Virus record (IMG/VR): IMGVR_UViG_3300028034_000051
Coordinates: 1 to 64,000 of that record
Length of the DNA stretch: 64,000 nt
Origin: a virus
Reading direction: 5' to 3' (one strand)
Shown here: piece by piece, positions 31,531 through 59,248 of the stretch
How positions within the stretch are numbered: position 1 is the stretch's first letter
How the letters are laid out: each line of letters opens with the position of its first letter
The notes under the pieces: generated by a model
Seen by the model: only the letters and a program-made list of their open reading frames with translations
Told to the model about the DNA's origin: nothing
Databases searched by the model: none
Translations under genes and position numbers: made by a program

Positions 31531-31531
31531 C

Positions 31532-32619: not shown

Positions 32620-32634
32620 AAAAATCACCTCATA

Positions 32635-34623: not shown

Positions 34624-34773
34624 CTATACCACCTCTCCTTGAAATTCAAGCCAACATTTATAACTACAGCAACATTCCCATTGATTATTAATATACTCTG
34701 GTACTCCTTCACCAGCATCAAAAGCAAATCCGCAATTAACACAAGTTTTTGTTGTTTCTTCTGTATCAACCAT

Positions 34774-35199: not shown

Positions 35200-35241
35200 T
35201 GATAATCGACCTCCTATATGGTATAATTAAATATAAGTTAA

Positions 35242-35787: not shown

Positions 35788-36006
35788 CTCACTTTCAATT
35801 TGACATTAGCCTTGTCAATAACTTATAGATGTTACACCTCAATCTTGCTATAATTAACATAGAAGATAAAAATTACATATTTGGATCACGTAAGAAATCT
35901 TGAAACTTTGGATAATGCACTACTAAATGCCACATCATCATATTCCAACTCACCTACTTCACCTCCCTTCAAAGCCTGTACACTTTCTTTCCGAGGTTAG
36001 TTCCCA

Positions 36007-36294
36007 CTAGCCCACAACTTTCATTCTTTCCTCAAAATCCTGTGTATCACTCGCTTCCTTGCTAATCCACTCAATCAGCTCTCGCTTTGGCAACAGCTTT
36101 CGATCTCCAATCATTAGATGCGGTATTCTATCCTGCTTGATTAGTTCATATATTGTAGCTTTGCTTACTCCTAACATTTCTTTTGCTTCTTTCACACTTA
36201 TCAGCTTCTGCTCAGTCTTTGGATCAGTTGAAGCATTCTTGACTTCTTCTCTGAGTAATCTTAGTTCTTGTAATATTTCCTCCATAACTCCCAT
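36007..36294 (-). CDS. xis: Excisionase-like HTH protein
   Basis: LISVKEAKEMLGVSKATIYELI..IP. Confidence 0.75.
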   Translation of the reverse strand: MGVMEEILQELRLLREEVKNASTDPKTEQKLISVKEAKEMLGVSKATIYELIKQDRIPHLMIGDRKLLPKRELIEWISKEASDTQDFEERMKVVG

Positions 36295-36297
36295 TGC

Positions 36298-36462
36298 TTA
36301 TTCACCTCCTTGGTCCCAATTTATTTCATCATATCCCTTTCTTTCGAAAGTTTTGCCAATCTGCTCCTTGAAATCTTCAGCTGCATCTTCTCCAAGAGTC
36401 TCTTTCATGTCTTCATACATTGATCGTAATAAGCTATCTGATAGATCGTTATCCAGTACCAT
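36298..36462 (-). CDS. Small acidic hypothetical protein, absent from ORF track
   Basis: Open frame filling the gap in the early operon; start uncertain. Confidence 0.45.
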   Translation of the reverse strand: MVLDNDLSDSLLRSMYEDMKETLGEDAAEDFKEQIGKTFERKGYDEINWDQGGE

Positions 36463-36634
36463 CACCTCCTTCGAAGTCTTGAAATATCCTCAGTAGATCA
36501 CAACCATCTGACTCAGCTTTCCGATTCATATAGAAATCATTAGCTTCCATTTCATTTTCAAAAACATGAACCTCATCATTGTAGATCACTATCCAATTAG
36601 CAGTTCCGACATCTGCATCATGCTCAATGAACAT
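36449..36634 (-). CDS. Hypothetical protein
   Basis: RBS AAGGAG. Confidence 0.5.
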   Translation of the reverse strand: MFIEHDADVGTANWIVIYNDEVHVFENEMEANDFYMNRKAESDGCDLLRIFQDFEGGDGTG

Positions 36635-36732
36635 TATCTATTCTCCTTTCACGCTGATTCTGGTATTTCTGTGGGTTGCAGGTCTTCTATTCCCTTCTCT
36701 CGAAAGTTTATCGTAGAAAGGAGGTGCAACCT

Positions 36733-36975
36733 ATGTTTGAATTCGACTTCGAAAAAGAATTTAACAAAGAAATTGCTAGTCATTTTGAAGATTTCATCAC
36801 ATTATCTAAGCAAATACCCATCTTATATGAAGAAAATCAAAAGTCAGTAGAACATTTTTCTGAACAAGCAATGCAAGAGTTTAGTGAACTTTATAGTAAA
36901 ATATGTGCCAATGTCTTAGAACAATACCACACTGATTTAATACACTTCTTAGAAGAAAAATTTGAAACTAAATAA
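36733..36975 (+). CDS. Antisense-oriented accessory protein (80 aa)
   Basis: RBS AAAGGAGGTG, ATG at 36733, hairpin 36981..37014 downstream. Confidence 0.7.
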   Translation: MFEFDFEKEFNKEIASHFEDFITLSKQIPILYEENQKSVEHFSEQAMQEFSELYSKICANVLEQYHTDLIHFLEEKFETK

Positions 36976-37000
36976 CATTCTAACTCTGTCTTAGCCCCAA

Positions 37001-37141
37001 CTAAGGCAGAGTTACTTCTACTTCTATATCTCTAAGTTCCTTTGTTAATCTCTCCAACTTGATTAAAGTTTCTCTTATTTCTTTGGTCTTCTCCTCCAAC
37101 TCCTTAACTGCTTCTGACTTAGACTTTACTTTTACTTTCAT
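37001..37141 (-). CDS. Small coiled-coil protein (46 aa), absent from ORF track
   Basis: RBS GGAGGTG; MKVKVKSKSEAVKELEEK.. Confidence 0.55.
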   Translation of the reverse strand: MKVKVKSKSEAVKELEEKTKEIRETLIKLERLTKELRDIEVEVTLP

Positions 37142-37218
37142 ACTCTCTCACCTCCTCACGCTGATTCTGGTATTTCTGTGGGTTGTATTGACTATAAAGT
37201 AGTCAATAAGTTACTTGT

Positions 37219-37431
37219 TTAAGCTGTTTTGTCTATTTCTGGGACATTAGTGTTCAAAAAAATATCTTTTCCTAATAAATCCATCATCCTAACAAAAAGC
37301 TCAAAAGAAGGGTTTTTGCCAGATTCTATATTAGCATAATGAGAACGGCTTATCTCTAAAAGGTCAGCCATTTCTTCCTGAGTCATATCTAAATCATCTC
37401 TAACTTTCTTTAATATATCTCCTACATCCAT
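37219..37431 (-). CDS. Cro-like XRE repressor
   Basis: MTQEEMA..SRSHYANIESG; divergent from CI-like gene. Confidence 0.85.
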   Translation of the reverse strand: MDVGDILKKVRDDLDMTQEEMADLLEISRSHYANIESGKNPSFELFVRMMDLLGKDIFLNTNVPEIDKTA

Positions 37432-37557
37432 GAAAAGCCCTCCTTTCTCTTAACTTACTATTATTATAGTTTATTTTCGGGACATTGTCAAGTTTAAAAA
37501 CAAAAAAAGTCGATAATCAGAACAAAAGTTTATTTTAAGGACATTATATTATATAAT
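37230..37557. promoter_or_regulatory. Lysis/lysogeny switch: four 17-bp operators and divergent promoters
   Basis: WGTY-N9-RACA at 37230, 37468, 37508, 37527; minus-strand TTGACA-17-TATAAT (37491..37463); plus-strand TATAAT at 37552. Confidence 0.75.
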
Positions 37558-37585
37558 AGAACCGAGTTAAAGGAGGTAGTTTAAA

Positions 37586-37981
37586 TTGGAATTTGGCAAA
37601 AGGCTAAAAAAACTAAGAAAAGAATCAAAATTAACTCAGCAAGAATTGGCCGATAAATTAAATATAAAAAGATCTACGCTAGCCGGCTACGAATCAGGTA
37701 AACAACCATCATACGAAACTCTAGTTAAACTTTCTGATATATTTAATGTCTCAGTAGACTATATACTAGGAGACACAGACGAACGTAAAAAAGCAGATCA
37801 CATCAAAGCTGCACTATCAGATGATCCAGAACTACTTGAGTTCTGGGATGAGATGAATGAAAGAGAAGATCTTAGAATGTATTTCAAGAAATGCAGTGAA
37901 CTTAGCCCTGAAACAATCAAAAAGCTCATTCATATCTCCAAAGTTTTCGAGGAAGAAGAAAGAGAGCGACATGGAGGATGA
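37586..37981 (+). CDS. CI/ImmR-like XRE repressor
   Basis: LTQQELA..YESG..VSVDYILG. Confidence 0.9.
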   Translation: MEFGKRLKKLRKESKLTQQELADKLNIKRSTLAGYESGKQPSYETLVKLSDIFNVSVDYILGDTDERKKADHIKAALSDDPELLEFWDEMNEREDLRMYFKKCSELSPETIKKLIHISKVFEEEERERHGG

Positions 37982-38298
37982 GCTTGGCTAAATCTCTGGG
38001 CTTACCTAGCAATTTAGACAAGCTACATGAATGGGCTAGTTTACATAATATTTACATTGCTACAGAAAACTTTGATCTAGAACTTTGGGGATATGCAACT
38101 AAATCTGACTACGATTCATATTTAGTGTTAATTAACAATCGTCTTTGTTATGAAATGCAACAAAAAGTATTAATGCATGAACTAGTACATATTCTAAAAC
38201 ATTCTCCAGGAAGTCATCCTATCTACAAGGATCAGTATGACATCGAAAAAGAAGCAGATGAATTAGCTGAAAAGATTATCAAAGATGCAAGTGGTTGA
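37978..38298 (+). CDS. ImmA/IrrE-like metallopeptidase (anti-repressor)
   Basis: HELVH and EKEAD; coupled to repressor. Confidence 0.85.
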   Translation: MSLAKSLGLPSNLDKLHEWASLHNIYIATENFDLELWGYATKSDYDSYLVLINNRLCYEMQQKVLMHELVHILKHSPGSHPIYKDQYDIEKEADELAEKIIKDASG

Positions 38299-38351
38299 TT
38301 TTTTATTTTGCTTTGCTCAGAAATATTTAGTAATATGACTAAATTAAGGAG

Positions 38352-39140
38352 GTGGTTTTAATTAAGTGTACTAAATGTGGTCAAGAAATAAATGATAATT
38401 CTAAATTTTGTCAGTATTGTGGCGCTAGACTTTATAGCACTAAAAATAATAATGAAAAATGGTACCAAAAAAAGGGTTGGATTATTGCATTATTATTTTT
38501 GTTTTTTCCTGCTGGTTTATTTTTAATGTGGAAATCAAATAAATTTAATAAAACAACTAAAATATTGGTTGCCATATTTTTTGTCTTTATGTTTATTATT
38601 ACTCCTGCTAGCCAAGAAAAGCAAAATATTAATCAAGCAAATAAAACAACAGTAGAAAACAAATCAAAAACTAATAAAAAGTCTACTTTGAATAAAGTTA
38701 ATAATAAAAATCATAAAGTCAACCCAACCGATATGACAATAGATGAGTATACTACTTATTTAGTTAATAATACAATAGGCAAAACTACTAACATGGGTAA
38801 TACTACTTTAATAAAACACACATATTCTAAAAATGATAACGAATTATTTTTAGAGTTATACGCTAATGAAAACTTTAGTTCAAATATGACTCGAAGAGGG
38901 ATCATTATGGATAGTAAAGATATATTTAAAAAATTCTTCAATGACCGAAAAGATGTACGTAGTTTAGTACTTGGATGGTACTTAACTTTAGTTGACCAAA
39001 GAGGAAATGAAAAACTAAGCAGAGTGTTATTAATAGATATGACTAAAAGCAACGCTAACACTATTAATTGGAGTAATGTAATAACTGACAATATACCTGT
39101 AATCGCTAACCATTATTGGGTTCATCCTGCTTTAAAATAA
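38352..39140 (+). CDS. Zinc-ribbon membrane protein with extracytoplasmic domain (possible superinfection exclusion)
   Basis: CTKC..FCQYCG, TM helices, low-complexity linker; lysogeny operon; RBS spacing favours ATT at 38361. Confidence 0.6.
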   Translation: MVLIKCTKCGQEINDNSKFCQYCGARLYSTKNNNEKWYQKKGWIIALLFLFFPAGLFLMWKSNKFNKTTKILVAIFFVFMFIITPASQEKQNINQANKTTVENKSKTNKKSTLNKVNNKNHKVNPTDMTIDEYTTYLVNNTIGKTTNMGNTTLIKHTYSKNDNELFLELYANENFSSNMTRRGIIMDSKDIFKKFFNDRKDVRSLVLGWYLTLVDQRGNEKLSRVLLIDMTKSNANTINWSNVITDNIPVIANHYWVHPALK

Positions 39141-39255
39141 TAAAAAATGGTTGATCTCATGAAAAAAACAGGTAATAGACCTCATTTCAGAGGTTTTCTT
39201 TTTAACTTTAAATCGAACATACATTCTTTACTTGACGCCGTAATTTGTAAAGGAG

Positions 39256-40407
39256 ATGATATTCATGGCTCACTTAAGAAAAAGAGGTGACAACTGGCAG
39301 ATTACAATCGAAGTTGGTCGTGATCCAGTCACAGGTAAACGAGAAAGAATCTATGAGACAGTCAAGGGAACTAAGAAGGAAGCAAGGAAGCGTATGCATG
39401 AACTAGCTTATCAAGTCGAAAACGGAACTTATGTAGAACCATCAGAATTAACTATGAAGGAATTTATGCTTAAATGGTATGAAGACTATTGCAAAAATAA
39501 TCTTGCCCCTTCTACGCAAGAATACTATGAGATGATCATCAATAGTCACTACATTCCTCTACTAGGTAATATTAAAATATCTGATCTTAAGCCAATGCAT
39601 ATTCAAAGCTATATTACAGAGAAGTTGAATAATGGCAGATTAGACGGTAAAGAAGGTGGTCTTTCTAGAAAATCAGTTAAGCGGCACTATACAGTCTTGA
39701 ATCAAATACTAAAATATGCTGTAAAGTTACAAGTGATTGATAGAAATCCAGCTGACCCAATAAGCCCACCTACTCCTAATAAGCCTGAAATACAAGCTAT
39801 GACCCACGAAGAGCTTAGTGAACTGTTAGAACATGTAGAAGGTTGGTTATATGATTTTATCTATATAGCATCCTTCACAGGCGCTAGAAGAGGTGAATTA
39901 TTAGCATTAAGATGGAAAGACGTAAACTTTAAAGAAAAGAAAATACAAATCAAACAGAGTGCATCTAAATTATCTGGAGGTAGATTAGTTTTTAGAGAGC
40001 CAAAAACAAATTCAAGTATTAGACCTATCGATATCGATGAAGACATTATCAAAATATTGAAACGTCGCAATAAAAAACAAAAAGAAGATAGATTGAGATT
40101 AGGCGAAAATTACAATAATGAATATGATTTAATATTTGTAAAAGAAAACGGAAATCCTTATTTCCCTGATTATGCTACAAAACAATTTAAAAAAGCCGTT
40201 AGGAAACTTGGTTTAGAAGAATATCGATTACATGATCTGCGGCATACCCATGCTACACTTATGTTGCAAGCTGGAGTTCATCCTAAAATAGTCCAGGAGC
40301 GTCTTGGGCATTCTTCTATTACTCAAACTCTTGACACTTACTCTCATGTAATTCCATCTATGCAAAAAGAGGCCGTCCAAAAACTAAAAAATAGCTTAAA
40401 AAAGTAA
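39256..40407 (+). CDS. int: Tyrosine integrase
   Basis: TGARRGE, HDLRHTHA, LGHS, Y catalytic residues; N-terminal arm-binding domain. Confidence 0.96.
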   Translation: MIFMAHLRKRGDNWQITIEVGRDPVTGKRERIYETVKGTKKEARKRMHELAYQVENGTYVEPSELTMKEFMLKWYEDYCKNNLAPSTQEYYEMIINSHYIPLLGNIKISDLKPMHIQSYITEKLNNGRLDGKEGGLSRKSVKRHYTVLNQILKYAVKLQVIDRNPADPISPPTPNKPEIQAMTHEELSELLEHVEGWLYDFIYIASFTGARRGELLALRWKDVNFKEKKIQIKQSASKLSGGRLVFREPKTNSSIRPIDIDEDIIKILKRRNKKQKEDRLRLGENYNNEYDLIFVKENGNPYFPDYATKQFKKAVRKLGLEEYRLHDLRHTHATLMLQAGVHPKIVQERLGHSSITQTLDTYSHVIPSMQKEAVQKLKNSLKK

Positions 40408-40728: not shown

Positions 40729-41244
40729 TTAACTGGTCTTTGGATCACCGTATAGCCTTTTCATAGCTGCATGCGTGACCAACCAATTACTTCCTGACTT
40801 GCGAACCTCTCCTTTCTCGAATCTGTCATCATACTTTGCTTTCCTCAAAGTTGAATCCCCAAGCCCCCATTTTTCTTGAGCTTCAGCAAATGTATATACT
40901 GTGTCTAGGTTATTGAGAGAACCAACCGAAAGGCCAATTCCGTAACTAGTCTTAGGATCATTATTATCAAAATGCTTTTTTGATGTAGAAAGAAATAAGT
41001 CGGCTATAATTTCTCTATACTGTTTGCTTTTTCTATCACCTTCAAGTATCCTTTCCAAAGCAACATACAACGATTGCATGTCCTTAAGATTATTAATTCT
41101 CGTTTTCCCTTCTTTGATTAACCTAACATAGCGATCATGATTAAGCTCGTTGGCGCGTGTAGCAATAACTCCAAGATAGAAAGCGATTCTATTAACATTA
41201 TCCTCAGCTAGCTTGCTTTGTTCAAACTTCGTAATCATATCCAT
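40729..41244 (-). CDS. Accessory protein with C-terminal HTH
   Basis: AEAQEKWGLGDSTLRKA..RKSGSNWLVT..LYG. Confidence 0.7.
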   Translation of the reverse strand: MDMITKFEQSKLAEDNVNRIAFYLGVIATRANELNHDRYVRLIKEGKTRINNLKDMQSLYVALERILEGDRKSKQYREIIADLFLSTSKKHFDNNDPKTSYGIGLSVGSLNNLDTVYTFAEAQEKWGLGDSTLRKAKYDDRFEKGEVRKSGSNWLVTHAAMKRLYGDPKTS

Positions 41245-41254
41245 GATTAACCAT

Positions 41255-41290
41255 CTCCTTTTTTGTAGTTGGCTCCTTTTTTGTAGTTGG
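41255..41290. repeat. 18-bp tandem duplication including the RBS
   Basis: CTCCTTTTTTGTAGTTGG x2. Confidence 0.85.
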
Positions 41291-41323
41291 CTTTTTAATA
41301 AGCAGAAGCCTAACTGCTATCAA

Positions 41324-41803
41324 TTACTTAATATAACCTTTCTCAACAGCTAAATCATAATGTCTAGCAAACTGATCTCTATTCTCTCCAAATTCTTCTT
41401 TTCTCTTTCTTGATTCTCTTCTAAATTTGTAATCATACCATTCGCAATCACTGTATTCCTCAACAAAAACTCCAACTTTTCTTTCATCTTCAATATCATC
41501 TTCGTTGACTTCTTTCCACTCTATAACTGACTTTGGAACCCAAACTTCGTCATTAAATAATGTTGCTTTCTCGGTTTCTTGTGTAACCTCTAAGTTTGAA
41601 AACTCATTAAGTAAACATTCTTGAGCAGAGTTCTTTCTTAACCACCAATCTTCAATAATAGGTTTTTTATTCATCTCTTTTTCCTCCTTTTCTTCTTTCC
41701 AAGCTAATTTCAATGCCAAGCTCATTCTAGCTCTATAATTACCTTCAAAAGTCTTCGCCAACTTGTGTGCCTTTCTCATTAATCTGCTTAACATTGAAAT
41801 CAA
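41324..41803 (-). CDS. Hypothetical accessory protein
   Basis: LMRKAHKLAK..SLALKLAW N-terminus; own promoter. Confidence 0.6.
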   Translation of the reverse strand: MISMLSRLMRKAHKLAKTFEGNYRARMSLALKLAWKEEKEEKEMNKKPIIEDWWLRKNSAQECLLNEFSNLEVTQETEKATLFNDEVWVPKSVIEWKEVNEDDIEDERKVGVFVEEYSDCEWYDYKFRRESRKRKEEFGENRDQFARHYDLAVEKGYIK

Positions 41804-41846
41804 CTCCTCAAATTATTTTGTGCCGTCTCCATCACTTTCTATATAT

Positions 41847-41875
41847 ATTGTAACACATGCGTTACATATTGTCAA
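41847..41875 (-). promoter_or_regulatory. SigmaA promoter with overlapping palindromic operator
   Basis: TTGACA-17-TACAAT; TGTAAC-N6-GTTACA at 41849..41866. Confidence 0.75.
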
Positions 41876-41904
41876 GAGTTATTTCAATTTATTTCTATAC
41901 AAAT

Positions 41905-41935
41905 AAAAAAAGCCCCGCCACCAAACGGCAGCGGG
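41905..41935 (-). terminator. Terminator ending the lysis operon
   Basis: CCCGCTGCC-GTTT-GGTGGCGGG followed by T7. Confidence 0.85.
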
Positions 41936-41940
41936 TACGA

Positions 41941-42057
41941 TTAGAATCTGTAATTGTATTCAGCTGATATACTTTTGTTCTTGATATCTAAGTCTACATC
42001 CAGACCAGGATCGGGCAGCGTCACTTGGTATTCCCTGATTTCTTTTGCGACTTTCCC
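41941..42057 (-). CDS. -1 frame extension of 42021..42392 (VAKEIREYQVTLPDPGLDVDLDIKNKSISAEYNYRF)
   Basis: In-frame G GGA AAG at 42057..42051; -1 frame open from there to TAA just before the terminator. Confidence 0.65.
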   Translation of the reverse strand, partial: GKVAKEIREYQVTLPDPGLDVDLDIKNKSISAEYNYRF

Positions 42058-42392
42058 TTATCAACTCGCTTGATTTCATTAATATGCTTATTAAGTTCCT
42101 TGACTGCATTCTCATCCGTCTTCTCTTCCTGCTCTATTACTTCATTTCTAACCTCAGTCAGCAACTTTGCTACATCCTCATTCTCTACTCCGGCACGCTT
42201 AAGTCCATTTTTGACAGCCTTAGTTATGTCTGGGATTGATGCATAAGCTACATCGTCAATCTCATTTTCTGTGCTTTCTACAAACTCTTTTCCTTCCTTG
42301 GCTAACTTTTTGATATAACCTTTGCTTACTACAAAAGCAACAATACCACTCAATATGATAGGACCTAATGAATTCATTAATAACGCTTCCAT
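42021..42392 (-). CDS. Lysis-cassette membrane protein (single N-terminal TM; holin- or spanin-like)
   Basis: PIILSGIVAFVVS TM then charged helical domain; last gene of lysis operon. Confidence 0.65.
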   Translation of the reverse strand: MEALLMNSLGPIILSGIVAFVVSKGYIKKLAKEGKEFVESTENEIDDVAYASIPDITKAVKNGLKRAGVENEDVAKLLTEVRNEVIEQEEKTDENAVKELNKHINEIKRVDKGKSQKKSGNTK

Positions 42393-42440
42393 AAGTAACC
42401 ATCTCCTCTTAATTTTATATTTCTGTCAATTCTAATCAAA

Positions 42441-43157
42441 CTAACTCCATATATTTTGTTTCCATTCGTCGTTAATCAAATCCCTGCAAATCCCTTTGTA
42501 TCCTTCTTCATTATGATATAAGTCACAACTTATCTCTTCATAAAAATCAGGATATTTCATGATTAGACCGTGTTCAAAATGAATATCCTTCATTGAAGAT
42601 TGGAATTTTAGCATAATTGCTTCGAATTCATTATATCTTCTAGCTTGCATTCCCTTAAGATCATAGAAGCAAATTTCATTAAATTTAGATTCCATAATAA
42701 ATTCAAGTAGTTCTTTGAATTCTTTCTCGTGCATATACCCTACAACTACATTGAGCCAGATTTTATCGACATCATTTTTGTCAATTTTTCTGTCCCATGC
42801 TTCAATTTCTTTTTCATTTGTAATATTAACTCCAACTGTATATGCCTTTTGAATAAGATTGTAGTCAATATCATGATCCTTGGTCATGAATGAGGTTTTA
42901 ATATTGTGCTCAATAGCAAAATCTAGTATTTGCTCTAAATCAGGATGTAACGTCGGGTCTCCACCAACCAGATTGAATTCATTAGTCTTATTTTTGTGAG
43001 CAAGCATAAATTGCTTTATTTTGCTAAGCTCAGCAACTTCCCCTTGACCTTTATCTTTGTTATTTTGAATACAAAATCCGCAACGGAAGTTACATTCGTT
43101 AGTTATCCGTAAATCAATTAAACGAAAATGTTCATTTTCTAATTCTACATCTTGCAT
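42441..43157 (-). CDS. Radical SAM protein (238 aa)
   Basis: CNFRCGFC (CxxxCxxC) and GGDP motif; RBS AAGGAG overlapping the endolysin stop. Confidence 0.85.
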   Translation of the reverse strand: MQDVELENEHFRLIDLRITNECNFRCGFCIQNNKDKGQGEVAELSKIKQFMLAHKNKTNEFNLVGGDPTLHPDLEQILDFAIEHNIKTSFMTKDHDIDYNLIQKAYTVGVNITNEKEIEAWDRKIDKNDVDKIWLNVVVGYMHEKEFKELLEFIMESKFNEICFYDLKGMQARRYNEFEAIMLKFQSSMKDIHFEHGLIMKYPDFYEEISCDLYHNEEGYKGICRDLINDEWKQNIWS

Positions 43158-43162
43158 AATTA

Positions 43163-43666
43163 TCACTCCTTTTCAATTTCTACACGCTTCATCCACCCTC
43201 TGATGAACACCTTTTGACTCGGATCATTAAGAGCTATCTTAACGTATCTTTCACCCTGCAGGATATTCATGATCTTAACTAGCTCATCAGTATACTCAAA
43301 TTCATTAACCGCAGCTGCAGTATTGGGTCCCATAACTCCATCGATTGCTATTTCATTTTCTCGAAAGCAATTGACAGCCATTTGCAAGTGCTTCGTTGCT
43401 GTGAATACGCCCATGTTAACCGCCTGGTCAAAACATTCGATTCCTACTTGGACCGGAACATTTTCGTATTGCCAGTAGTTTTCTCGATATATTTCCTTAG
43501 CTTTCTCCAATGACAAATCCCTCATATCACCTTCATAACCTGCTGCTCTAGCCACTTCTTCAGTAATGCCAAACTTAGTAATTCCTCCTCGATCTGCTTC
43601 ATGATTGGAGTAGCCACCTTCGTAATTCAGTACTTCCTCGAATGCTTTCTCGAACTTTTTGCTCAC
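43163..43666 (-). CDS. Endolysin, glycoside hydrolase family 108 with PG-binding domain
   Basis: EGGYSNHEADRGGITKFGIT, FDQAVNMG, DGVMGPNT, FIRGWMKR. Confidence 0.92.
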   Translation of the reverse strand: MSKKFEKAFEEVLNYEGGYSNHEADRGGITKFGITEEVARAAGYEGDMRDLSLEKAKEIYRENYWQYENVPVQVGIECFDQAVNMGVFTATKHLQMAVNCFRENEIAIDGVMGPNTAAAVNEFEYTDELVKIMNILQGERYVKIALNDPSQKVFIRGWMKRVEIEKE

Positions 43667-43713
43667 ATGATCACCTCCATTTTTTGCATTAAAAAAGACA
43701 CCCTTTCAGGAGT

Positions 43714-43992
43714 CTACGAAGTTATTGCATATATTAATGACGCTATTGCTACAAGCCACCCGCCCCATTTTCTAATTGTTTCTGCTAATTCATGCTTACC
43801 TTTTTCCGTATTCTCTATCTCATTAATCTTTTCTTCGTTCTGATTAATCTTTTGATAGCTTTCCATCATATCTTGCCTTAGTCCGTTGTACCTTTTGATT
43901 ACACTTCGAGTCTGTGTCATTTCTTCTTTGAGACTTTGGATCATATCGAATAGCTCTTTATTTGAATACCACTCTTTTTCATTGTCTGTCAT
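43714..43992 (-). CDS. Holin-like protein (paralog of 48..329)
   Basis: WYSNK N-terminal motif and identical C-terminal TM. Confidence 0.7.
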   Translation of the reverse strand: MTDNEKEWYSNKELFDMIQSLKEEMTQTRSVIKRYNGLRQDMMESYQKINQNEEKINEIENTEKGKHELAETIRKWGGWLVAIASLIYAITS

Positions 43993-44033
43993 TGACCACA
44001 CCCCTTCAAGAAAAAATCCACCTCCCCAGGTGG

Positions 44034-44390
44034 TTAATCCGTAATGCTTTCTGTAATTTTGAGAGTTCCCTCGAACGCCTTATATCTTCTACCAGTTGAA
44101 TCTTCTACTAACGTTAATTCATGCTTATATAGCCCTGTTGCTATATCAGTATCTATGTTAGTTATATTGATTTCAATTTGTCCGTTCAGAGCATCTAGTA
44201 TATCGATTCCATTTCCATCTGACTTGTTGATTACTTCAGTTTTTGTATTCGGGTCCTCAGCCACATACTTCAAAGAAAAATCACCTAATGGAACTTCAAC
44301 TCCATTATCAGTGATAGTGTGCGGGTATGTTCGATCAATCCTTTGAGAAATCTCATAGTTCACTTGAGTTACATCATTCATAAGCATCAC
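44034..44390 (-). CDS. BppU-like baseplate/fibre-associated protein
   Basis: DALNGQIEI..DT..G.YKHEL beta-sandwich pattern. Confidence 0.5.
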   Translation of the reverse strand: MMLMNDVTQVNYEISQRIDRTYPHTITDNGVEVPLGDFSLKYVAEDPNTKTEVINKSDGNGIDILDALNGQIEINITNIDTDIATGLYKHELTLVEDSTGRRYKAFEGTLKITESITD

Positions 44391-45597
44391 CTACTTTCAC
44401 AATATCTAGAGTTTTGTTATCTGCAACACGTGTGATCTCCAATTCTTCCTCTGTTGCTTTTCTAGTTATTTGTGGATTAACGTCCAAAATCTTACGAAAT
44501 ATATCGACTACTCTTGCCATATCAAATGCAATTGGATTACTGTAATATCCTTCCATCTCTGTTGTTGATTCTTTTGATATGTCATCTGTTAATATTGATG
44601 ACGAATAGTAGCCTGGCATAGTTAAAACTACATCTAAAGGTGGATTTAAGGCACTATCTATTAAGAGCACATTCTTTCCACTATACCTACCAATATATAA
44701 AATCCTGTTACTTAACACTTGCAATCCTTCACTTATTCCTGTATTCACTTTTAGCCTTGTATTAAGTGAACAATCAAGATTGTAAATATCAGCATAGGCT
44801 TGGTATGTGCTATTTTCGTATTTATAAAGTCCACACACAAAATATTCACCTGTAGTATTGAATTTTAAGTTATTAATAAATTCTGCAACTTGATTTTCTG
44901 ATAGTATGTCACCTGTTTGTGCATCAATTGTTCTTATCCAATTATTATTATTTACATCTCTATAAAACATAGCAATTCTGTTGCTTACACTTGAATAATC
45001 AAAAGCACGTATGTCTGTATCTTTATCATTGGGCATACTATTTAATATATTGCCTGTATCATAATCAACAAACGTTACTGATGAATTTTCTCTGCTATGT
45101 CTCACTTGTATGAATGTTTGTTCATCTATAAATAAAATTTCTGATATCCCTCTTGCAAGCATCGACTCAATAAATGTACCATCAACATCATATTTGCATA
45201 AATCATACTCCCCAACTAATATTTGAGTATTATCAGGTGACATTTCTATGAAATAGACATCATAAGAATATTGTGCTTCTTGCAAATCAAAGAATTTAAC
45301 AATTTCCCCCGTTGATATTGTAATCTTGAGCACTTCACAATTAGTTGTAACAGCAAATAATATATCATCAGTGTACCATGTAATGTCTTTTAGTTCACCG
45401 CCATTAAATTGGTTTTCCCAATATCCATGCAATGTGGCAGTTTTGTAGTCATATATGAAAATCTCATTTCCATCATGATAGGCATCACCATTGAATAGTG
45501 CTATTAGTTCTTTGTTAGGACTTAAATAAGTGTTCTTCCATGAGCCATAAGCCCTACTATCAATATTAAAACTGAATATAGTATCGCCCTGTGCCAT
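44374..45597 (-). CDS. Beta-propeller (WD40/YVTN-like) tail-associated protein
   Basis: Repeated SPD/SPN, D..TG turns at about 40-aa spacing. Confidence 0.6.
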   Translation of the reverse strand: MAQGDTIFSFNIDSRAYGSWKNTYLSPNKELIALFNGDAYHDGNEIFIYDYKTATLHGYWENQFNGGELKDITWYTDDILFAVTTNCEVLKITISTGEIVKFFDLQEAQYSYDVYFIEMSPDNTQILVGEYDLCKYDVDGTFIESMLARGISEILFIDEQTFIQVRHSRENSSVTFVDYDTGNILNSMPNDKDTDIRAFDYSSVSNRIAMFYRDVNNNNWIRTIDAQTGDILSENQVAEFINNLKFNTTGEYFVCGLYKYENSTYQAYADIYNLDCSLNTRLKVNTGISEGLQVLSNRILYIGRYSGKNVLLIDSALNPPLDVVLTMPGYYSSSILTDDISKESTTEMEGYYSNPIAFDMARVVDIFRKILDVNPQITRKATEEELEITRVADNKTLDIVKVGDAYE

Positions 45598-45598
45598 A

Positions 45599-45820
45599 TT
45601 AATCTACTCCCCATTGAGCCAGAATATTTTTTGCTTCTGTTTTGGTTATTTCTTGTATTTGGGCTGATTGTTCAACTTTCATATCAACTGAATCCTCTGC
45701 TCTCCAAATACATTGCGTCTCGTCTGGAGAATAACCACAATTACTGTAATCCTTGTGACCAACATCTGGATAACTAAAACTAGTTCCAATCTTATCAGTA
45801 TTAATAAGATAATATTTCAT
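45599..45820 (-). CDS. Hypothetical protein
   Basis: ORF in tail operon. Confidence 0.55.
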   Translation of the reverse strand: MKYYLINTDKIGTSFSYPDVGHKDYSNCGYSPDETQCIWRAEDSVDMKVEQSAQIQEITKTEAKNILAQWGVD

Positions 45821-45835
45821 TCTTAATCACCGTCC

Positions 45836-46198
45836 TTATACTATTTTTGGAACTTCAAGCGGACACTTAATTGTCGCCTTATCTGCATCTTGAGTTAACT
45901 CCGTAGTAGAAACACTTTGAACTGGGCCCAGTGAATCTGTAGAACTACCATTAGGAAATAATACCCCTTGATCAATAGTAACTGGTAATGGAATATCCGA
46001 GTCACTACCATTAATCTCAACTGAAAGCTCCATTGGGTTATTCCCTTGTGTATGCGTCCAACTTACTCTGCTATCAGACAACGGCAATCTTACAATTGCA
46101 TTCCCGTTGTCATTCTGTAATTCTATATGAATACTACTGTTACGGATCAATGTTTCCCGAATCCATTCGTAGCCGTTTGAATTGAATTCAACTGCCAA
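45836..46198 (-). CDS. Hypothetical tail-associated protein
   Basis: ORF in tail operon with RBS. Confidence 0.55.
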   Translation of the reverse strand: MAVEFNSNGYEWIRETLIRNSSIHIELQNDNGNAIVRLPLSDSRVSWTHTQGNNPMELSVEINGSDSDIPLPVTIDQGVLFPNGSSTDSLGPVQSVSTTELTQDADKATIKCPLEVPKIV

Positions 46199-46203
46199 TT
46201 ATG

Positions 46204-46419
46204 TCACCTCCCTAGATTTTGTTTTTTTTTATTATCGTAAGTAAAACTAACACTAACCCCTACCGCATTTGCTAACTTTTTAATTGCTGTTATCATTTCT
46301 TCTTTAGTGATAAGATCCAATTCATCTGCTAATTCTGCATTTTCGTCTGCTAATTTTTCTAAGCCCTTTTCAATTTTAACACTACCGTCTAATTGTTTAT
46401 TAGCATTGAATTTAGTCAA
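46204..46419 (-). CDS. Hypothetical protein
   Basis: ORF in tail operon with RBS. Confidence 0.5.
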   Translation of the reverse strand: MTKFNANKQLDGSVKIEKGLEKLADENAELADELDLITKEEMITAIKKLANAVGVSVSFTYDNKKKQNLGR

Positions 46420-46911
46420 TTAAATCACCTCCACTTGAGTCTGTGGGTGATTTCTAAATAAATCCCCTTGATAACTGATAATATAATTGCCTACATCAGT
46501 TACTTCAACAACTTGCTCACCATGATTATTAGTGATAGGTATATTTATTGGAATATCTTCAAAATAAACAGTCACAGATGCTATATCATCAACTGCAATA
46601 GTATCTTTAATATCAACTATAATAGTCAATTTAGAACTTACAGAAGTATTTACTGTAACCTTATCAGTGACTAATTCTATTTTAGGTTTGGGAACAACAT
46701 TATCATTAACTACTCTTAATTCGTTTTGAGCTTGATTAGTAAGCATATTTTGGTCAATAGTTATAAATGACATATACTTTTTAGCATCTTCTGATACTCT
46801 AGCACTACGATACAATGCTTCATCAGAAGGTAATCCTGCACTACCATGAGGTTCTGGCTGACATCTTAATATCTCGTTGGTTCTGGTATCGTATAATATT
46901 TTGCTAGGCAT
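46420..46911 (-). CDS. Hypothetical tail-associated protein
   Basis: Coupled to the tail tip gene. Confidence 0.55.
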   Translation of the reverse strand: MPSKILYDTRTNEILRCQPEPHGSAGLPSDEALYRSARVSEDAKKYMSFITIDQNMLTNQAQNELRVVNDNVVPKPKIELVTDKVTVNTSVSSKLTIIVDIKDTIAVDDIASVTVYFEDIPINIPITNNHGEQVVEVTDVGNYIISYQGDLFRNHPQTQVEVI

Positions 46912-49900
46912 TAATCAGCACCTCCTTCAATTGCAATCCACATTACTTCGCCATTATCAACAATTTGGTCTCTCCAAAAGCTCCATTTTGTTATAATAAG
47001 TGATCCCTTTGCTATTTCTATTTTAATGGCATATTTCCCCGCAGGTAAGTTAGGAATTAGAATTTTATTCGTTGGCCCATAACTGCCATATAATGTCCAA
47101 CCAGTATCATTATATTCTTTATAATATACATTTACAGGGAACGGAGCATCACCTGTATAAAACGTTACAGACAATTTTGTTACATCACTTTGCGAAGTAT
47201 ATGATGATATCCATATTGGATTTTGATAATCAAGAGTTACATCAGTAATATCATTAACATGCTCTATGCCTTTAATGATTGAATGACCGTATGCATAGAA
47301 ACCATCTTTTGAAATAGCACTGGCAAAGCTTTCATAAGTTTGCGTTTTCCCACTATAATTAACATTATAACTCATTAAACTTTTGATAGCCGTTTGCACT
47401 TTTGGAGCTTTATCCCACCCGAGATTAATATAATCACCATCCTGTGCTACACCGTAAGCTACTCGTTTACTATACCAATGAGGAATAGTTGAACCTGCTT
47501 CATAAAATTTCAAATGATCATCATTCAATATTGACCTATCACCATCTGAACCGACAATCTCAATCCCATCTTCACCATTGATTAGCATACCACCCGGGTA
47601 CATTTGTACATTTCCTGCTCCAATTGTTGGTTCAGCATCATAGAATGGTGCGTTAGATTTATGCCAAGATAAAACTTCTTCGTTTGTGTGTGCTTTATCA
47701 GAAATCATAAGTTCATCAATTAGAACACCTTTAATTGAATGACCAAACTCTAAACGGCTCATTTCTTGCGTTACTGTCCCAGTACCTTTTTTAGTTCCAT
47801 CCCCATATACAGTCACAGTCCCATTCTCTCTTACAAAAGTTACTGTATGCCATTCATAAGGAAGGAAGTTATTAACTGCATTAGGACAACCACTCACTCT
47901 AATATCTTGATAAGCAGTTTCACACCACCATCTACCAGAGTGGTCACTATTCCACCAATTAAATACATCTTGCCATCTATCAGTTGAATCATCATACTCT
48001 TTAGTAATTGCAACTTCAAAATGTAAAGTAAAATCACCTGTGCCTATTTGTGGTGTTTTATAATCTAGCACTCCATTTGGTCTACTTCCATCTACAAAAC
48101 TAGTTGAAAATGATTTGCTTTCAATCTGCATCCTTTTTGCATAAGATGTACCTGTATCAATAGTGCCTGGATAATGATATATAGCAAATCCTAATCTATC
48201 AGCAGGATTACCATCACTTCCTAATACACTATCATCTCGAGTGAATGTTATTGAATATCTATCATATGAAGTTTTAGTAGATGATAGAGCCACGGCACCT
48301 ATCCATTCACCATTAGGGTTTTTAGAATAGATATAAAATCTAACTTCACCACCAGCATCTTTTCTAGCTTGATCTATTTTCAAGTCTACAGAGAAAGTGA
48401 CTTTATCTCCATTAGACATACCTAACTTAGCAAATGTATATGACTCTGTCCAAAAACTATATCCTGTTCCAGAATAGGCTAGTTCACCAGTTGCGTAATT
48501 GTTTTGTGCAAGATTAGTTGTACCTTCTTCAATTGCTACCGCACCGCCGAATACACCTTCGTTTGGTCTTAAAGTAGCAACTGGTGTTCCAACTGGCTTA
48601 ACCCCATCTGTACTAACTAATGACCTGTCAAAGTGCCATAGGTGCGCATCTTCTGGTTTTGTTGGATTTGCGTAAGCCTTTGCATTACTCTCAGCACTAT
48701 CAGCTTTAGCCTGTGCTCCAGCTTCATTTTCTGCCGGTGATCCCGAAACAGTTATGCCGTTAGCATCAATATAGGTAGAACTGTTTTCACTTTGAACTTT
48801 CATATTTCCGGTAAGTGTAAGAACCTGGGCTAATATTTCATCAGATAAAGTTACAGTCCAGAATTTCAATTCGTATAATGTTAATGCTGCATCAAATACT
48901 ATTCTCATTTTGTTTGTAGCTACCATCTTATCATTATCAAACCGTTTTATATTCCATTGGTTGGCATTGCAAGCCACAGGACTAGTACTAGAACCTATTA
49001 CATCTATCCAAGCTTCTGTGTCTTTGTCCCAAGCTTGTACATAGTAATTACAGGCAACACTAGGATAGAATCTAACCATGTCAAAGAACCACTGCATCGG
49101 ATATTCAAAAGTAATGGTTGGTGCACTACCGAAAGCAGGTCCTAATCCTGTATCCATATCCCAAAGTTGTTCTAATGATCCAGAGCTTGGCGTTACATCA
49201 CTTATAGGATTAATATTGAACGATTGATTTATATCCTTTGCATCAATTAGGTTAGGAGTAATTGAGCCACTACCCCATGGCCCTTGTTGACCTAACTTAT
49301 CTATAAATCTAGCTCTTACATAGTTAGTTGTATCACCAATAGCAGGTACTTCTCTGATAAAATCTTTTCCTTTATAAATCTCCGGACTACCAAAATTACT
49401 GTCGGTATCAATTTGAAATTCGATAATATCTAAGTCTTTGATATTCGGATCATCAACTGCTAATTGTAATTGCGATAGTGTAGAATTGATATGTAGTGTC
49501 GGCATTGGTGGTACCGAGTTGGTAACAGTTACACTCACTGCATTAGCTGAATATACACCGCTACGATTGAATGCTTTGATATAGAATGTCTCACTAACTG
49601 TTTCTGGTTCCTTAATGTGAGATAATGCATTACCTCGATAGATCAATTCTGAATTAGCAGTCGTATCTTGACCCCAGTTCATATCTGCGGTTCTTATTTC
49701 AAATCCTGACTTATCTTGATCAGGTATATCATTCCATTGTAAGACTATCTTATCTTCAAAAGTACATGTAGCCCAGGTAACATCACTTGGTGGATTTTCA
49801 TTACCAGTTATAGTTATTGTAGTAGTTGGTGATGTTCCAAAGTCTGCTTTAATACCGTGCCTATTTTCAGAAACTACCTTAACATCGTAAATTTCTGGAC

Positions 49901-51473: not shown

Positions 51474-51475
51474 AC

Positions 51476-53217: not shown

Positions 53218-53220
53218 CAA

Positions 53221-59238: not shown

Positions 59239-59248
59239 GTGGTATCAC

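What the first reader, a model, noticed from the sequence alone, without database searches (positions are those of the whole stretch)
41941..42392. Hidden -1 frameshift appends an OMP-like beta-hairpin with a beta-signal to a lysis membrane protein
Seen: the last lysis gene (N-terminal TM) contains G GGA AAG in the correct X XXY YYZ phase 9 codons before its stop. The -1 frame is closed by TAA just upstream of the heptamer, opens at it, and runs 36 codons to a stop a few bases before the operon terminator, giving a 150-aa product ending GLDVDLDI-KNK-SISAEYNYRF: two strands of alternating hydrophobic residues with terminal YxF. Established: GGGAAAG is the lambda G-T slippery site, and alternating hydrophobics with C-terminal Phe is the beta-signal read by BamA. 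I see no lipobox o-spanin in the cassette. Inference: an unannotated outer-membrane disruption device (single-chain spanin substitute, beta-pore former or BAM ligand) for a probably diderm Firmicute host. Caveat: basic residues after the TM predict a cytoplasmic C-terminus, so access to the OM may require holin lesions or release.
Basis: partly seen in the sequence, partly recalled or inferred. Interest (0 to 1): 0.9.

Follow-up and report, generated by a model that had tools for sequence, protein, structure and literature searches.

The report
Conserved frameshift tail on lysis protein
The last gene of a phage lysis operon carries a slippery site and a short hidden reading frame that also occur in two phages of a related two-membraned Firmicute, so a second, longer protein ending in an outer-membrane-like beta hairpin is probably made, though its job is untested.

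Summary
There is an in-phase G_GGA_AAG at 42057-42051 (minus strand). The -1 frame opens at it and runs 36 more codons to TAA at 41943-41941, 5 nt before the terminator.

From the window alone I read this as chance: 4 of 81 in-phase heptamers have a -1 frame at least as long, and no stimulatory fold is present.

Degenerate-pattern scans of viral contigs changed that reading. Two prophages of Sporohalobacter salinus (Halanaerobiales, a diderm order) end their lysis cassette the same way. Each has an N-terminal-TM gene that is not detectably homologous to the window's gene. Each also has an in-phase G_GGA_AAC, a -1 frame of identical length, and a conserved tail ending AEYN[YW]RF. Differences in the tail are mostly synonymous or conservative.

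The extension is therefore very probably coding (about 0.9). It is probably made by -1 frameshifting (about 0.6). A separately initiated 25-27-aa peptide is the main rival.

The outer-membrane role is untested inference (about 0.3-0.35 for the whole chain). No lipoprotein o-spanin candidate exists in any of the three cassettes.

DNA of the closest homologues could not be fetched. The scan had noted this same stretch before in an overlapping window, but not on other DNA.

The parts
42021..42392 (-). Zero-frame gene: 123-aa protein with an N-terminal hydrophobic/TM segment followed by a charged, predicted-helical domain. It is the last gene of the late/lysis operon.
   Evidence: ORF. Hydropathy maximum 2.12. 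All-helical AF2 model at low confidence (pLDDT 54.7). No Pfam, PHROG or NCBIfam family above cut-off. Small family of 99-138-aa homologues.
42051..42057 (-). Slippery heptamer G_GGA_AAG in X_XXY_YYZ phase.
   Evidence: The matching in-phase G_GGA_AAC sits at the same distance from the -1 stop in L002 and L031.
41941..42057 (-). -1 frame open reading stretch of 38 codons (GK...YNYRF) plus TAA.
   Evidence: Same length and frame layout in L002 (5433..5549, minus) and L031 (4312..4428, plus).
41944..42018 (-). Conserved part of the extension (residues 14-38: LPDPGLDVDLDIKNKSISAEYNYRF). Two predicted strands of alternating hydrophobic residues, ending aromatic-R-F.
   Evidence: Alignment A4 has 18 invariant columns. 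Substitution pattern. AF2 hairpin at E19-24 and E29-34, pLDDT 61.
42021..42024 (-). GTGA: a -1-frame GTG (extension codon 12) overlapping the zero-frame TGA stop. This is the possible restart site of the rival 'separate small ORF' reading.
   Evidence: Sequence. Weak SD (-4.9 kcal/mol against a median of -8.4 for 58 ORF starts).
41914..41935 (-). Intrinsic terminator of the late/lysis operon, 5 nt after the -1 stop.
   Evidence: A near-identical stem-loop occurs in L002. A different hairpin occurs in L031.
43163..43666 (-). Endolysin (Glyco_hydro_108 + PG_binding_3).
   Evidence: E 2e-23 and 3e-13; phrog_315, endolysin.
43714..44001 (-). 95-aa protein with a C-terminal hydrophobic segment, upstream of the endolysin. 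It is a candidate holin-type membrane protein; the function is inferred from position only.
   Evidence: ORF and sequence. No family hit.
42441..43166 (-). Radical SAM gene inserted between the endolysin and the 123-aa gene. It is not part of the conserved module, because it is absent from L002 and L031.
   Evidence: The cassettes of L002 and L031 lack it.

Best explanation
The 81 nt between the annotated stop of the 123-aa gene and the terminator are protein-coding in the -1 frame. They are most likely decoded by tandem -1 slippage of tRNA-Gly and tRNA-Lys on G_GGA_AAG, the same heptamer as lambda G/GT.

Most ribosomes would finish the 123-aa form. A minority would shift and make a 150-aa form. 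The long form has the same N-terminal membrane anchor and helical domain. It then has a variable 11-residue linker and a conserved 25-residue amphipathic beta hairpin ending Y-R-F.

The gene is the last one of the lysis cassette in phages of diderm Halobacteroidaceae, and these cassettes have no lipoprotein o-spanin candidate. I therefore infer that the pair of isoforms acts at the last step of lysis. In this reading the long form carries an outer-membrane-directed, beta-signal-like end. It would work like a single-chain spanin anchored in the inner membrane, or like a BAM-directed strand.

What is shown: the sequence layout, its conservation in 3 sequences from 2 lineages, and coding-type substitutions. 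What is inferred: frameshifting itself, the topology, and any outer-membrane action.

My odds: coding about 0.9, frameshift about 0.6, whole chain including the outer-membrane role about 0.35. The confidence field gives the whole chain.
For: (1) The layout is confirmed.

(2) A pattern scan for AEYNYRF-stop found L002. A protein scan with L002's gene found L031. These are two prophage records of one genome, and the gene product there is named as Sporohalobacter salinus.

(3) In both records the gene after the endolysin is a 114-aa N-terminal-TM protein that is not detectably homologous to the window's family (hhalign probability 6.9%; no tblastn hit at E<=10). Even so, both carry in-phase G_GGA_AAC, a -1 frame closed two codons upstream, exactly 38 codons to the stop, and the tails GKRKDFSRYRVGELPEAGLHIDMDFGEKEVYAEYNYRF and ...EIYAEYNWRF.

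(4) Two further scans that did not force the same residues re-found only these two records among real matches. The 5 other hits were chance.

(5) L002 against L031 after the zero-frame stop shows 8 nt differences in 81. In the extension frame these are 4 synonymous changes plus E>D, V>I and Y>W. The other two sense frames show 1 synonymous with 5 non-synonymous and 1 with 6. Six of the 8 changed bases are third positions of the extension frame. The terminator differs between the two, so the conservation is not simply shared DNA.

(6) Window against L002 shows 28 of 81 nt different, yet every hydrophobic position of both strands stays hydrophobic (L/L, V/I, L/M, I/F, I/V, A, Y, Y, F).

(7) The 11 codons between the heptamer and the conserved part are almost random between lineages, while GGGAAA is kept. 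Apart from the heptamer under study, in-phase GGGAAAN occurs only 2 times in the window's 18,717 codons.

(8) No candidate internal start has a normal ribosome-binding site, and their positions differ. The window has GTG at codon 12 (-4.9 kcal/mol). L002 and L031 have TTG at codon 14 with an SD only 1-2 nt away. The median for 58 ORF starts is -8.4 kcal/mol with 7 nt spacing.

(9) The same prophage uses A_AAA_AAC at its tail-chaperone/tape-measure junction, with a 135-codon -1 frame. This suggests that AAC-type sites shift in this host group.

(10) Passages of PMC5009743 say G_GGA_AAG is highly shift-prone in E. coli. [quoted passage not shown] Table 1 of PMC3296357 gives GGGAAAG for lambda G/GT.

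(11) AF2 on the 3-row alignment gives a hairpin (E19-24, E29-34) at modest confidence.

(12) No lipobox ORF occurs in any of the three cassettes. The hosts' order is diderm with BamA (PMC5007114 passages).
Against: Only 3 sequences from 2 lineages are available, and two of them come from one genome.

DNA of the 79%-identical homologue P0003 and of 8 other family proteins (P0004-P0007, P0009-P0012) could not be read. Five of those (P0005, P0007, P0010-P0012, 99-108 aa) have no matching tail at the protein level.

No in-frame fused form was found.

No stimulatory RNA structure is present (z -0.07 and +0.47; consensus -8.5 kcal/mol with a positive covariation term).

Codon usage of the extension is only at the 6.7th percentile of 905 real coding windows.

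Conservation begins at codon 14, close to possible restart codons, as a separate small ORF would predict.

An antisense frame is also open in all three sequences and has a similar synonymous count for L002 against L031 (5 synonymous, 2 non-synonymous).

Against the outer-membrane step: there is no cleavable signal peptide. In the window's protein five Lys follow the TM and no basic residue precedes it, which by the positive-inside rule predicts a cytoplasmic C-terminus. The hairpin is net acidic. The Gly of the E. coli beta-signal consensus is absent. Halanaerobiales have LolA, so lipoprotein spanins would not be impossible there.
Confidence: 0.35

Rival explanations
1. A separate small gene. 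In this reading the conserved hairpin is a free 25-27-aa peptide. It starts at GTG (window, overlapping the TGA stop as GTGA) or at TTG (L002 and L031, 5 nt after TAG). It is translated by termination-reinitiation from the upstream gene, and the heptamer is irrelevant.
For: Conservation begins at L14-P15, right at these codons. The GTGA stop/start overlap is in the window. AGGAG lies next to the TTG in L002 and L031. The upstream zero-frame proteins are not homologous while the tail is, as expected for an independent module. There is a precedent of an overlapping lysis gene activated by termination of the upstream gene: MS2 L, which I saw only as reference titles in PMC5009743. Overlapping out-of-frame partner genes are normal for spanins (PMC6139136 passage).
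Against: The start codon differs in kind and in position between lineages. SD strength or spacing is atypical in all three. This reading gives no reason for the in-phase GGGAAAN at the identical distance in both lineages amid unconserved flanks. It also gives no reason for the -1 frame staying open from the heptamer to the start in 3 of 3. The peptide has no export signal and is acidic, unlike the cationic phiKT gp28 peptide (abstract only).
Confidence: 0.25
2. The frameshift is real, but the long isoform works at the cytoplasmic membrane or in the cytoplasm. It would be a timing regulator or assembly partner of the short form, in the way holin/antiholin isoform pairs work. It would not act at the outer membrane.
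For: The charge distribution around the window protein's TM predicts C-in (sequence). There is no signal peptide. Two isoforms in a fixed ratio from one lysis gene is the logic of known holin/antiholin pairs (recalled knowledge). The zero-frame protein belongs to no known family.
Against: A strictly alternating hydrophobic/acidic hairpin ending aromatic-x-Phe, kept through a Y>W change, is what membrane beta strands look like and is unusual for a cytoplasmic tail. Both cassettes already have another small membrane protein upstream of the endolysin. None of the cassettes has any other outer-membrane device.
Confidence: 0.2
3. No function. In this reading the ORF is a chance open frame in a 3' untranslated region. 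Its similarity among the three records reflects recently shared DNA around a common terminator, or a nucleic-acid element.
For: From the window alone the ORF length is unremarkable (4 of 81). Codon usage is intermediate. The last 24 nt and the terminator are identical or nearly so between the window and L002. The scan covers very many windows, so rare patterns will turn up by chance.
Against: L031 has a different terminator and 8 differences in the tail, and these are synonymous or conservative. The window and L002 differ at 28 of 81 nt yet keep frame, length and hydrophobic pattern. There is no Rfam match and no conserved fold.
Confidence: 0.07
4. The coding strand is the other one. In this reading a 39-aa antisense ORF is the real gene: window 41954..42073 on the plus strand (MYSADILL...) and L002 5446..5565 on the plus strand.
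For: It is open, with the same length, in the window and L002. L002 against L031 gives 5 synonymous and 2 non-synonymous changes in that frame.
Against: It shares third-codon positions with the sense tail frame, so it inherits that frame's synonymous pattern. Neither of its 2 replacements between L002 and L031 is conservative, and only 2 of 13 are between the window and L002. The sense frame has 3 of 3 and 4 of 12. Its hydrophobic pattern is not kept. I see no SD before its TTG (sequence). It would be transcribed against the late operon, starting inside the terminator.
Confidence: 0.03

Closest known systems
Lambda G/GT-type programmed -1 frameshift (tail assembly chaperone), including the g-t sites of haloarchaeal viruses HCTV-1, -2 and -5
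   Same: The heptamer is identical (GGGAAAG; PMC3296357 Table 1). G_GGA_AAG and G_GGA_AAC are interchanged among relatives (PMC5009743 passage). The site lies near the 3' end of the upstream frame. No strong stimulatory structure is present. The result would be a minor C-terminally extended isoform.
   Different: The gene is the last one of a lysis cassette, not a tail chaperone; the window's own chaperone site is elsewhere, at 56390. The extension is only 36 codons. It encodes a beta hairpin rather than a tape-measure-binding domain.
Two-component spanins (i-spanin Rz with o-spanin Rz1, including overlapped and -1-frame architectures)
   Same: The position is after the endolysin in a phage of a diderm host. 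The first protein has an N-terminal TM and a helical charged domain. A second reading frame overlaps the 3' end of the first gene. PMC6139136 reports o-spanins in the -1 frame in 116 cases (passage).
   Different: The overlapping frame has no start with a normal RBS, no signal peptide and no lipobox. It would be joined to the first protein by frameshifting rather than made separately. There is no sequence similarity to any spanin family in PHROGs or Pfam.
Unimolecular spanin (T1 gp11 type)
   Same: The idea is the same: one chain with one anchor for each membrane (described in the PMC6139136 abstract).
   Different: The polarity is reversed. Here there is an N-terminal TM and a C-terminal beta-signal-like hairpin. 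The u-spanin has an N-terminal lipoprotein signal and a C-terminal TM. Neither anchor type is shown here.
C-terminal beta-signal of outer-membrane proteins, and its mimics (C-terminal peptide of lectin-like bacteriocins that binds BamA strand 1; darobactin)
   Same: The tail ends aromatic-x-aromatic/Phe with a hydrophobic residue 8 positions upstream. These are the elements called essential in PMC10945584 (passages). They are conserved in 3 of 3 tails. The bioRxiv abstract 10.64898/2026.09.25.754295 describes proteins that inhibit BAM through a C-terminal peptide mimicking the signal.
   Different: The Gly of the 8-residue consensus is Glu here. No Sec signal is present. No binding has been tested. 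The consensus comes from Proteobacteria, not from Halanaerobiales.
phiKT gp28 ('disruptin'), a spanin-less outer-membrane disruptor
   Same: It is a small product of a lysis cassette in a phage without spanins that breaks the outer membrane (abstract start of 10.1101/515445).
   Different: gp28 is described as a cationic antimicrobial-type peptide. The tail here is net acidic (about -2 in the window and -5 in L002, counted from the sequences) and is predicted to be beta, not helical.

Membership tests
Programmed -1 ribosomal frameshift site (tandem-slippage heptamer) | X_XXY_YYZ heptamer in phase with the zero frame | tested here: met
   G_GGA_AAG at 42057..42051. G_GGA_AAC is in phase in L002 and L031.
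Programmed -1 ribosomal frameshift site (tandem-slippage heptamer) | -1 frame open from the site, giving a distinct C-terminal extension | tested here: met
   36 codons follow GGG AAA in 3 of 3 sequences.
Programmed -1 ribosomal frameshift site (tandem-slippage heptamer) | Heptamer and -1 frame conserved in relatives, with coding-type substitutions in the new frame | tested here: met
   Met in 3 of 3 sequences with readable DNA, representing 2 lineages. DNA of 9 other family proteins was not available.
Programmed -1 ribosomal frameshift site (tandem-slippage heptamer) | Stimulatory element (downstream hairpin or pseudoknot, or upstream SD-like sequence). This is common but not obligatory. | tested here: not met
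   z -0.07 and +0.47. The alignment fold is -8.5 kcal/mol with a positive covariation term.
Programmed -1 ribosomal frameshift site (tandem-slippage heptamer) | Trans-frame protein actually made | not testable with these tools
   No RNA or proteome data were reachable. It needs mass spectrometry or a reporter assay.
Two-component spanin | i-spanin: N-terminal TM (N-in) with a periplasmic, largely helical domain | tested here: inconclusive
   The TM is present. The model is helical only at pLDDT 54.7. Orientation is not testable, and the flanking charges of the window protein argue for C-in.
Two-component spanin | o-spanin: lipoprotein with signal peptide and lipobox Cys, encoded embedded, overlapping or adjacent | tested here: not met
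   No sense-strand lipobox ORF in window 41000..47000. None in L031 1..8099 or L002 3000..9000.
Two-component spanin | Encoded in the lysis cassette of a phage of a diderm host | tested here: met
   An endolysin lies directly or nearly upstream. Named relatives belong to Halobacteroidaceae. The order is diderm (PMC5007114). The window's own host is inferred, not shown.
Unimolecular spanin (T1 gp11 type) | N-terminal lipoprotein signal plus C-terminal TM in one chain | tested here: not met
   The N-terminus is a plain hydrophobic segment without a lipobox. The C-terminus is an amphipathic hairpin.
Outer-membrane protein beta-signal | C-terminal consensus polar-x-G-x-x-[aromatic/hydrophobic]-x-[aromatic/hydrophobic] (PMC10945584) | tested here: inconclusive
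   The last 8 residues are SAEYNYRF, YAEYNYRF and YAEYNWRF. The aromatic-x-Phe end is met in 3 of 3. The polar first position is met. Gly is not met (Glu in 3 of 3).
Outer-membrane protein beta-signal | Delivery to the periplasm by a cleavable signal peptide | tested here: not met
   There is no n-region/h-region/cleavage-site pattern, only an uncleaved N-terminal hydrophobic segment (sequence).
Disruptin (phiKT gp28-like cationic peptide) | Cationic amphipathic peptide | tested here: not met
   The tail is net acidic in all 3 sequences (counted). It is predicted to be beta.

The most novel reading that the evidence does not exclude
This would be a third kind of spanin. A minority of an inner-membrane-anchored, helical lysis protein receives, by programmed -1 frameshifting, a C-terminal beta hairpin with a BAM-type beta-signal. 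The hairpin inserts into the outer membrane or jams the BamA gate, so that one chain bridges or breaches both membranes. In this reading it is the way phages of diderm Firmicutes (Halanaerobiales) get through an outer membrane tethered by OmpM rather than by Braun lipoprotein.
Probability: 0.25. Interest if true: 0.9.

Novelty: new variant of a known kind. Interest (0 to 1): 0.72.

Why it matters
Conserved -1 frameshifting in tailed phages is best known from the tail-chaperone gene (recalled). A second conserved site in a lysis gene would be a new use of recoding.

How phages of two-membraned Firmicutes breach the outer membrane appears not to be described in the library I searched. No listed paper combined 'spanin' with Negativicutes or Halanaerobiales names. 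None combined beta-signal, BamA, phage and lysis protein. The one comparative preprint on their prophages discusses only holin and lysin position (passages of 10.1101/606087).

This module gives a concrete candidate that is small and easy to test. Sporohalobacter salinus carries two copies, one on a record classed as complete with terminal repeats.

If the tail is a natural BAM-directed strand, it would also interest the field of BAM inhibitors.

Tried and rejected
Chance-only reading. I held this until. It rested and on the homologues' short tails. I rejected it after L002 and L031 were found.

tblastn against the phage collection found none. The genome search cannot draw relatives for virus records. 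I therefore could not search Halanaerobiales genomes.

Reads. No RNA holder was listed. In runs X3-X6 no contig covers 41916..42020. This gives no information on variation of the tail.

Extension searches. tblastn of the 38-aa tail against phages gave only an E=6 hit. A PDB sequence search gave E>=0.6. The ESM Atlas gave scores of 0.89 or less and low recognition, with one rank-12 cluster in which 14% of members carry Phage_OMP, a lead too weak to use. The 'longer' search with L002's 40-aa open frame found nothing.

Pattern hits judged to be chance. L003 lies inside a repeat-rich ORF in another frame. The 23 loci gave best tblastn E 0.07. L027-L029 share only the terminator motif. L032-L036 are also chance.

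Family assignment of the 123-aa protein. Pfam, PHROGs and NCBIfam gave nothing above cut-off. phrog_2738 (unknown function) was touched by 5 of 6 members at best E 0.0015. The Atlas gave 0.78 or less. I did not run fold search because both AF2 models are of low confidence.

Complex prediction with 4 copies of the tail returned no verdict. It is not used as evidence either way.

RNA explanations. There are no Rfam matches and no conserved structure.

The two Sporohalobacter cassettes have the tail but no radical SAM gene, so I do not link them.

Supplementary files of papers were closed. Table S4 of PMC6139136 (frames of o-spanins) and the gene tables of PMC5007114 were not seen.
Full report
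WHAT IS THERE

The finding sits on the minus strand. The ORF at 42021..42392 encodes 123 aa. It starts after a good SD and has an N-terminal hydrophobic segment (KD-19 maximum 2.12). An intrinsic terminator follows at 41935..41914 and a promoter-like site at 41875..41847.

The 3' end reads ...GAT AAG GGA AAG TCG CAA AAG AAA TCA GGG AAT ACC AAG TGA. G_GGA_AAG (42057..42051) is therefore in X_XXY_YYZ phase, nine codons before the stop. In the -1 frame a TAA directly precedes GGG. The frame then reads GKVAKEIREYQVTLPDPGLDVDLDIKNKSISAEYNYRF-stop and ends 5 nt before the terminator stem.

CONTEXT

Upstream on the same strand lie four genes:
- a 95-aa protein with a C-terminal hydrophobic end (43714..44001);
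- a Glyco_hydro_108/PG_binding_3 endolysin (43163..43666, and phrog_315);
- a 241-aa radical SAM protein overlapping the endolysin stop (42441..43166; generic core only, best NCBIfam hit 54 bits against a cut-off of 180);
- the 123-aa gene.

Further upstream are tail genes. Downstream come an excisionase-like HTH gene and, on the other strand, an integrase. The record is a 72,413-base virus record.

CHANCE LEVEL FROM THE WINDOW ALONE

In 78 non-overlapping ORFs (18,717 codons) there are 81 in-phase XXXYYYZ heptamers. Four have a -1 frame of 36 or more codons. The longest is A_AAA_AAC at 56390 with 135 codons. It lies in a tail assembly chaperone (phrog_1442) directly before the tape-measure gene. 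This is the canonical G/GT-type site and a useful positive control.

Other window-only results:
- The RNA after the heptamer folds no better than shuffles (z -0.07).
- Codon usage of the extension is 0.062 bits per codon. That is the 6.7th percentile of 905 real coding windows. It lies above 37 of the 38 off-frame open windows.
- The tail pattern is rare: 1 of 808 real open frames and 0 of 40,271 simulated ones under strict criteria written after the fact, and 0.27% under a looser version.
- The protein family is tiny. It comprises P0003 (125 aa, 79% identity, named Ca. Frackibacter sp. T328-2), P0004 (138 aa), P0005-P0007 (99-107 aa) and cluster mates P0009-P0012.
- No member is longer than 138 aa, and none has the tail in frame.

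At this point I put about 85% on chance.

THE TURN

I therefore scanned viral contigs with a degenerate DNA pattern for AEYNYRF-stop. It gave two hits. One (L003) is a chance hit inside a repeat-rich ORF.

The other (L002) is the end of a lysis cassette. That cassette holds:
- a 62-aa YvrJ-family membrane protein;
- a 155-aa Phage_lysozyme endolysin;
- a 114-aa protein beginning MKELILSQ with an N-terminal TM.

The Pfam assignments were made on the near-identical L031 copies.

The 114-aa gene ends ...TTG TCG GGA AAC GAA AAG ... GAG TAG. It therefore has G_GGA_AAC in phase. In the -1 frame a TAG lies two codons upstream of the heptamer. The frame reads GKRKDFSRYRVGELPEAGLHIDMDFGEKEVYAEYNYRF-stop. 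This is again exactly 38 codons, followed by a terminator almost identical to the window's.

A scan with the 114-aa protein found a second prophage record of the same genome. This is L031/L037, 97% identical, classed as complete with terminal repeats. It has the same heptamer, the tail ...GEKEIYAEYNWRF and a different terminator. The 114-aa protein is named as Sporohalobacter salinus.

Two further scans used patterns that leave the previously forced residues free. One covered the hairpin to the stop. The other covered the heptamer, a gap and the first strand. Both re-found only these two records as real matches. The five other hits are chance.

IS THE TAIL CODING?

L002 and L031 differ at 8 of 311 nt in the gene body but at 8 of 81 nt in the tail after the zero-frame stop. 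In the tail frame these 8 differences are four synonymous codon changes plus E>D, V>I and Y>W. The other two sense frames show 1 synonymous with 5 non-synonymous and 1 with 6, with stops in one of them.

Six of the eight changed bases are third positions of the tail frame. By my own binomial arithmetic, not run as a call, p is about 0.02 for that pre-specified phase.

The window and L002 differ at 28 of 81 nt. Only 5 of these are second codon positions. All nine hydrophobic positions of the two strands stay hydrophobic. Among the sense frames only the tail frame is open in all three sequences.

One antisense frame is open too. It has a similar synonymous count for L002 against L031 because it shares third positions with the tail frame. 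Its replacements are not conservative, and I see no SD before it. No Rfam family and no conserved fold explain the conservation. AF2 on the three tails gives a hairpin (E19-24, E29-34; pLDDT 61). I put coding at about 0.9.

FRAMESHIFT OR SEPARATE START?

For frameshifting:
- The zero-frame proteins of the two lineages are not detectably homologous (hhalign 6.9%; no tblastn hit).
- The 11 codons after the heptamer are essentially unconserved. Yet GGGAAA is kept, in phase, at the identical distance from the stop.
- In-phase GGGAAAN is rare. Apart from the heptamer under study it occurs 2 times in 18,717 codons.
- The -1 frame is open from the heptamer in 3 of 3.
- Interchange of G_GGA_AAG with G_GGA_AAC is documented for related viruses' g-t sites. 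G_GGA_AAG is highly shift-prone in E. coli (PMC5009743 passage). It is the lambda G/GT site (PMC3296357 Table 1).
- At the protein level x-G-[K/N] is also kept in P0003 (TGK) and P0004 (TGN), with the zero-frame stop nine codons later.
- P0003's two replacements in that stretch (G>E, T>I) would be third-position changes of the -1 frame if single-base. This is an inference without DNA.
- Candidate internal starts differ between lineages (GTG at codon 12; TTG at codon 14) and have atypical SD strength or spacing.

For a separate ORF:
- Conservation starts at codon 14.
- The window has a GTGA stop/start overlap.
- L002 and L031 have AGGAG just before the TTG.
- The tail behaves as a module attached to unrelated upstream genes.

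I put the frameshift at about 0.6 and the separate ORF at about 0.25.

WHAT IT MAY DO

The named relatives belong to Halobacteroidaceae in the Halanaerobiales. Passages of PMC5007114 describe that order as diderm, with LPS, a single BamA, OmpM-type tethering and LolA.

The gene occupies the place where spanin genes lie in phages of Gram-negative hosts. No lipobox ORF exists in any of the three cassettes.

The tail meets the elements that PMC10945584 calls essential for BAM signals: a hydrophobic residue, then aromatic-x-aromatic at the very end. These elements survive a two-base Y>W change. The consensus Gly is Glu, however.

Against an outer-membrane role:
- there is no signal peptide;
- the window protein's charges predict C-in (L002's are neutral);
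- the tail is acidic;
- one hairpin cannot make a barrel alone.

I therefore give the spanin-like or BAM-directed reading about 0.55 conditional on frameshifting, which is about 0.35 overall. An inner-membrane or cytoplasmic regulatory role for the long isoform gets about 0.2.

COMPARISON AND NOVELTY

The recoding mechanism is the known lambda G/GT kind. The gene context and the nature of the extension are new to me and to the searched library. The module is not a member of the i/o-spanin or u-spanin families by their defining features. It may nevertheless work like one. I rate it a new variant of a known kind, with a categorically new lysis device as the boldest reading that the evidence does not exclude.

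LIMITS

- Only three sequences from two lineages were available, and two come from one genome.
- There are no expression data.
The family's wider distribution is therefore unknown.
- Paper supplements were closed.

Noticed in passing
window 56384..56390 (minus strand), gene 56321..56752, -1 frame into 55977..56279: Canonical tail-assembly-chaperone frameshift site A_AAA_AAC. It has a 135-codon -1 frame and lies directly before the tape-measure gene 53593..55977.
   Followed up: partly
window 42441..43166 (minus strand): A radical SAM gene lies inside the lysis cassette and overlaps the endolysin stop. Only the generic core matches (viperin-family model at 54 bits against a cut-off of 180). The gene is absent from the two Sporohalobacter cassettes. 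In run X5 a 707-nt contig carries the 123-aa gene with 3 differences but runs on unlike the window upstream of 42411. The gene therefore looks like an insertion rather than a partner of the tail.
   Followed up: partly
window 1..40407 versus 40729..64000: There are two structural modules. An integrase (39256..40407, plus strand) lies between them, next to an excisionase-like HTH gene (40729..41244).
   Followed up: no
window 41954..42073 (plus strand); L002 5446..5565 (plus strand): A 39-aa antisense ORF starting MYSA is open with the same length in the window and L002. It is probably a shadow of the sense tail frame.
   Followed up: yes
window 40398 and 35287: Two more in-phase A_AAA_AAG heptamers lie near gene ends and have long -1 frames. 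One is at the end of the integrase (57 codons). The other is 12 codons before the stop of 35242..35787 (42 codons). Neither was examined.
   Followed up: no
L002 4786..5155: An array of about 36-nt repeats with a period of 66-72 nt lies just beyond the prophage's lysis end (TRF period 72, 3.5 copies; repeated peptide). It looks like a CRISPR array in the host flank.
   Followed up: partly
window 42240..42338: Run X3 holds a 99-nt contig that differs at 11 positions from the window's gene, alongside identical contigs. A diverged variant of the gene therefore coexists in that run.
   Followed up: no
L031 902..2752: The 616-aa protein upstream of the Sporohalobacter lysis cassette has many tandem 'VALKEDGTLKAWG...NQVTDTPTD' repeats. 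It is probably a repeat-built tail fibre.
   Followed up: no
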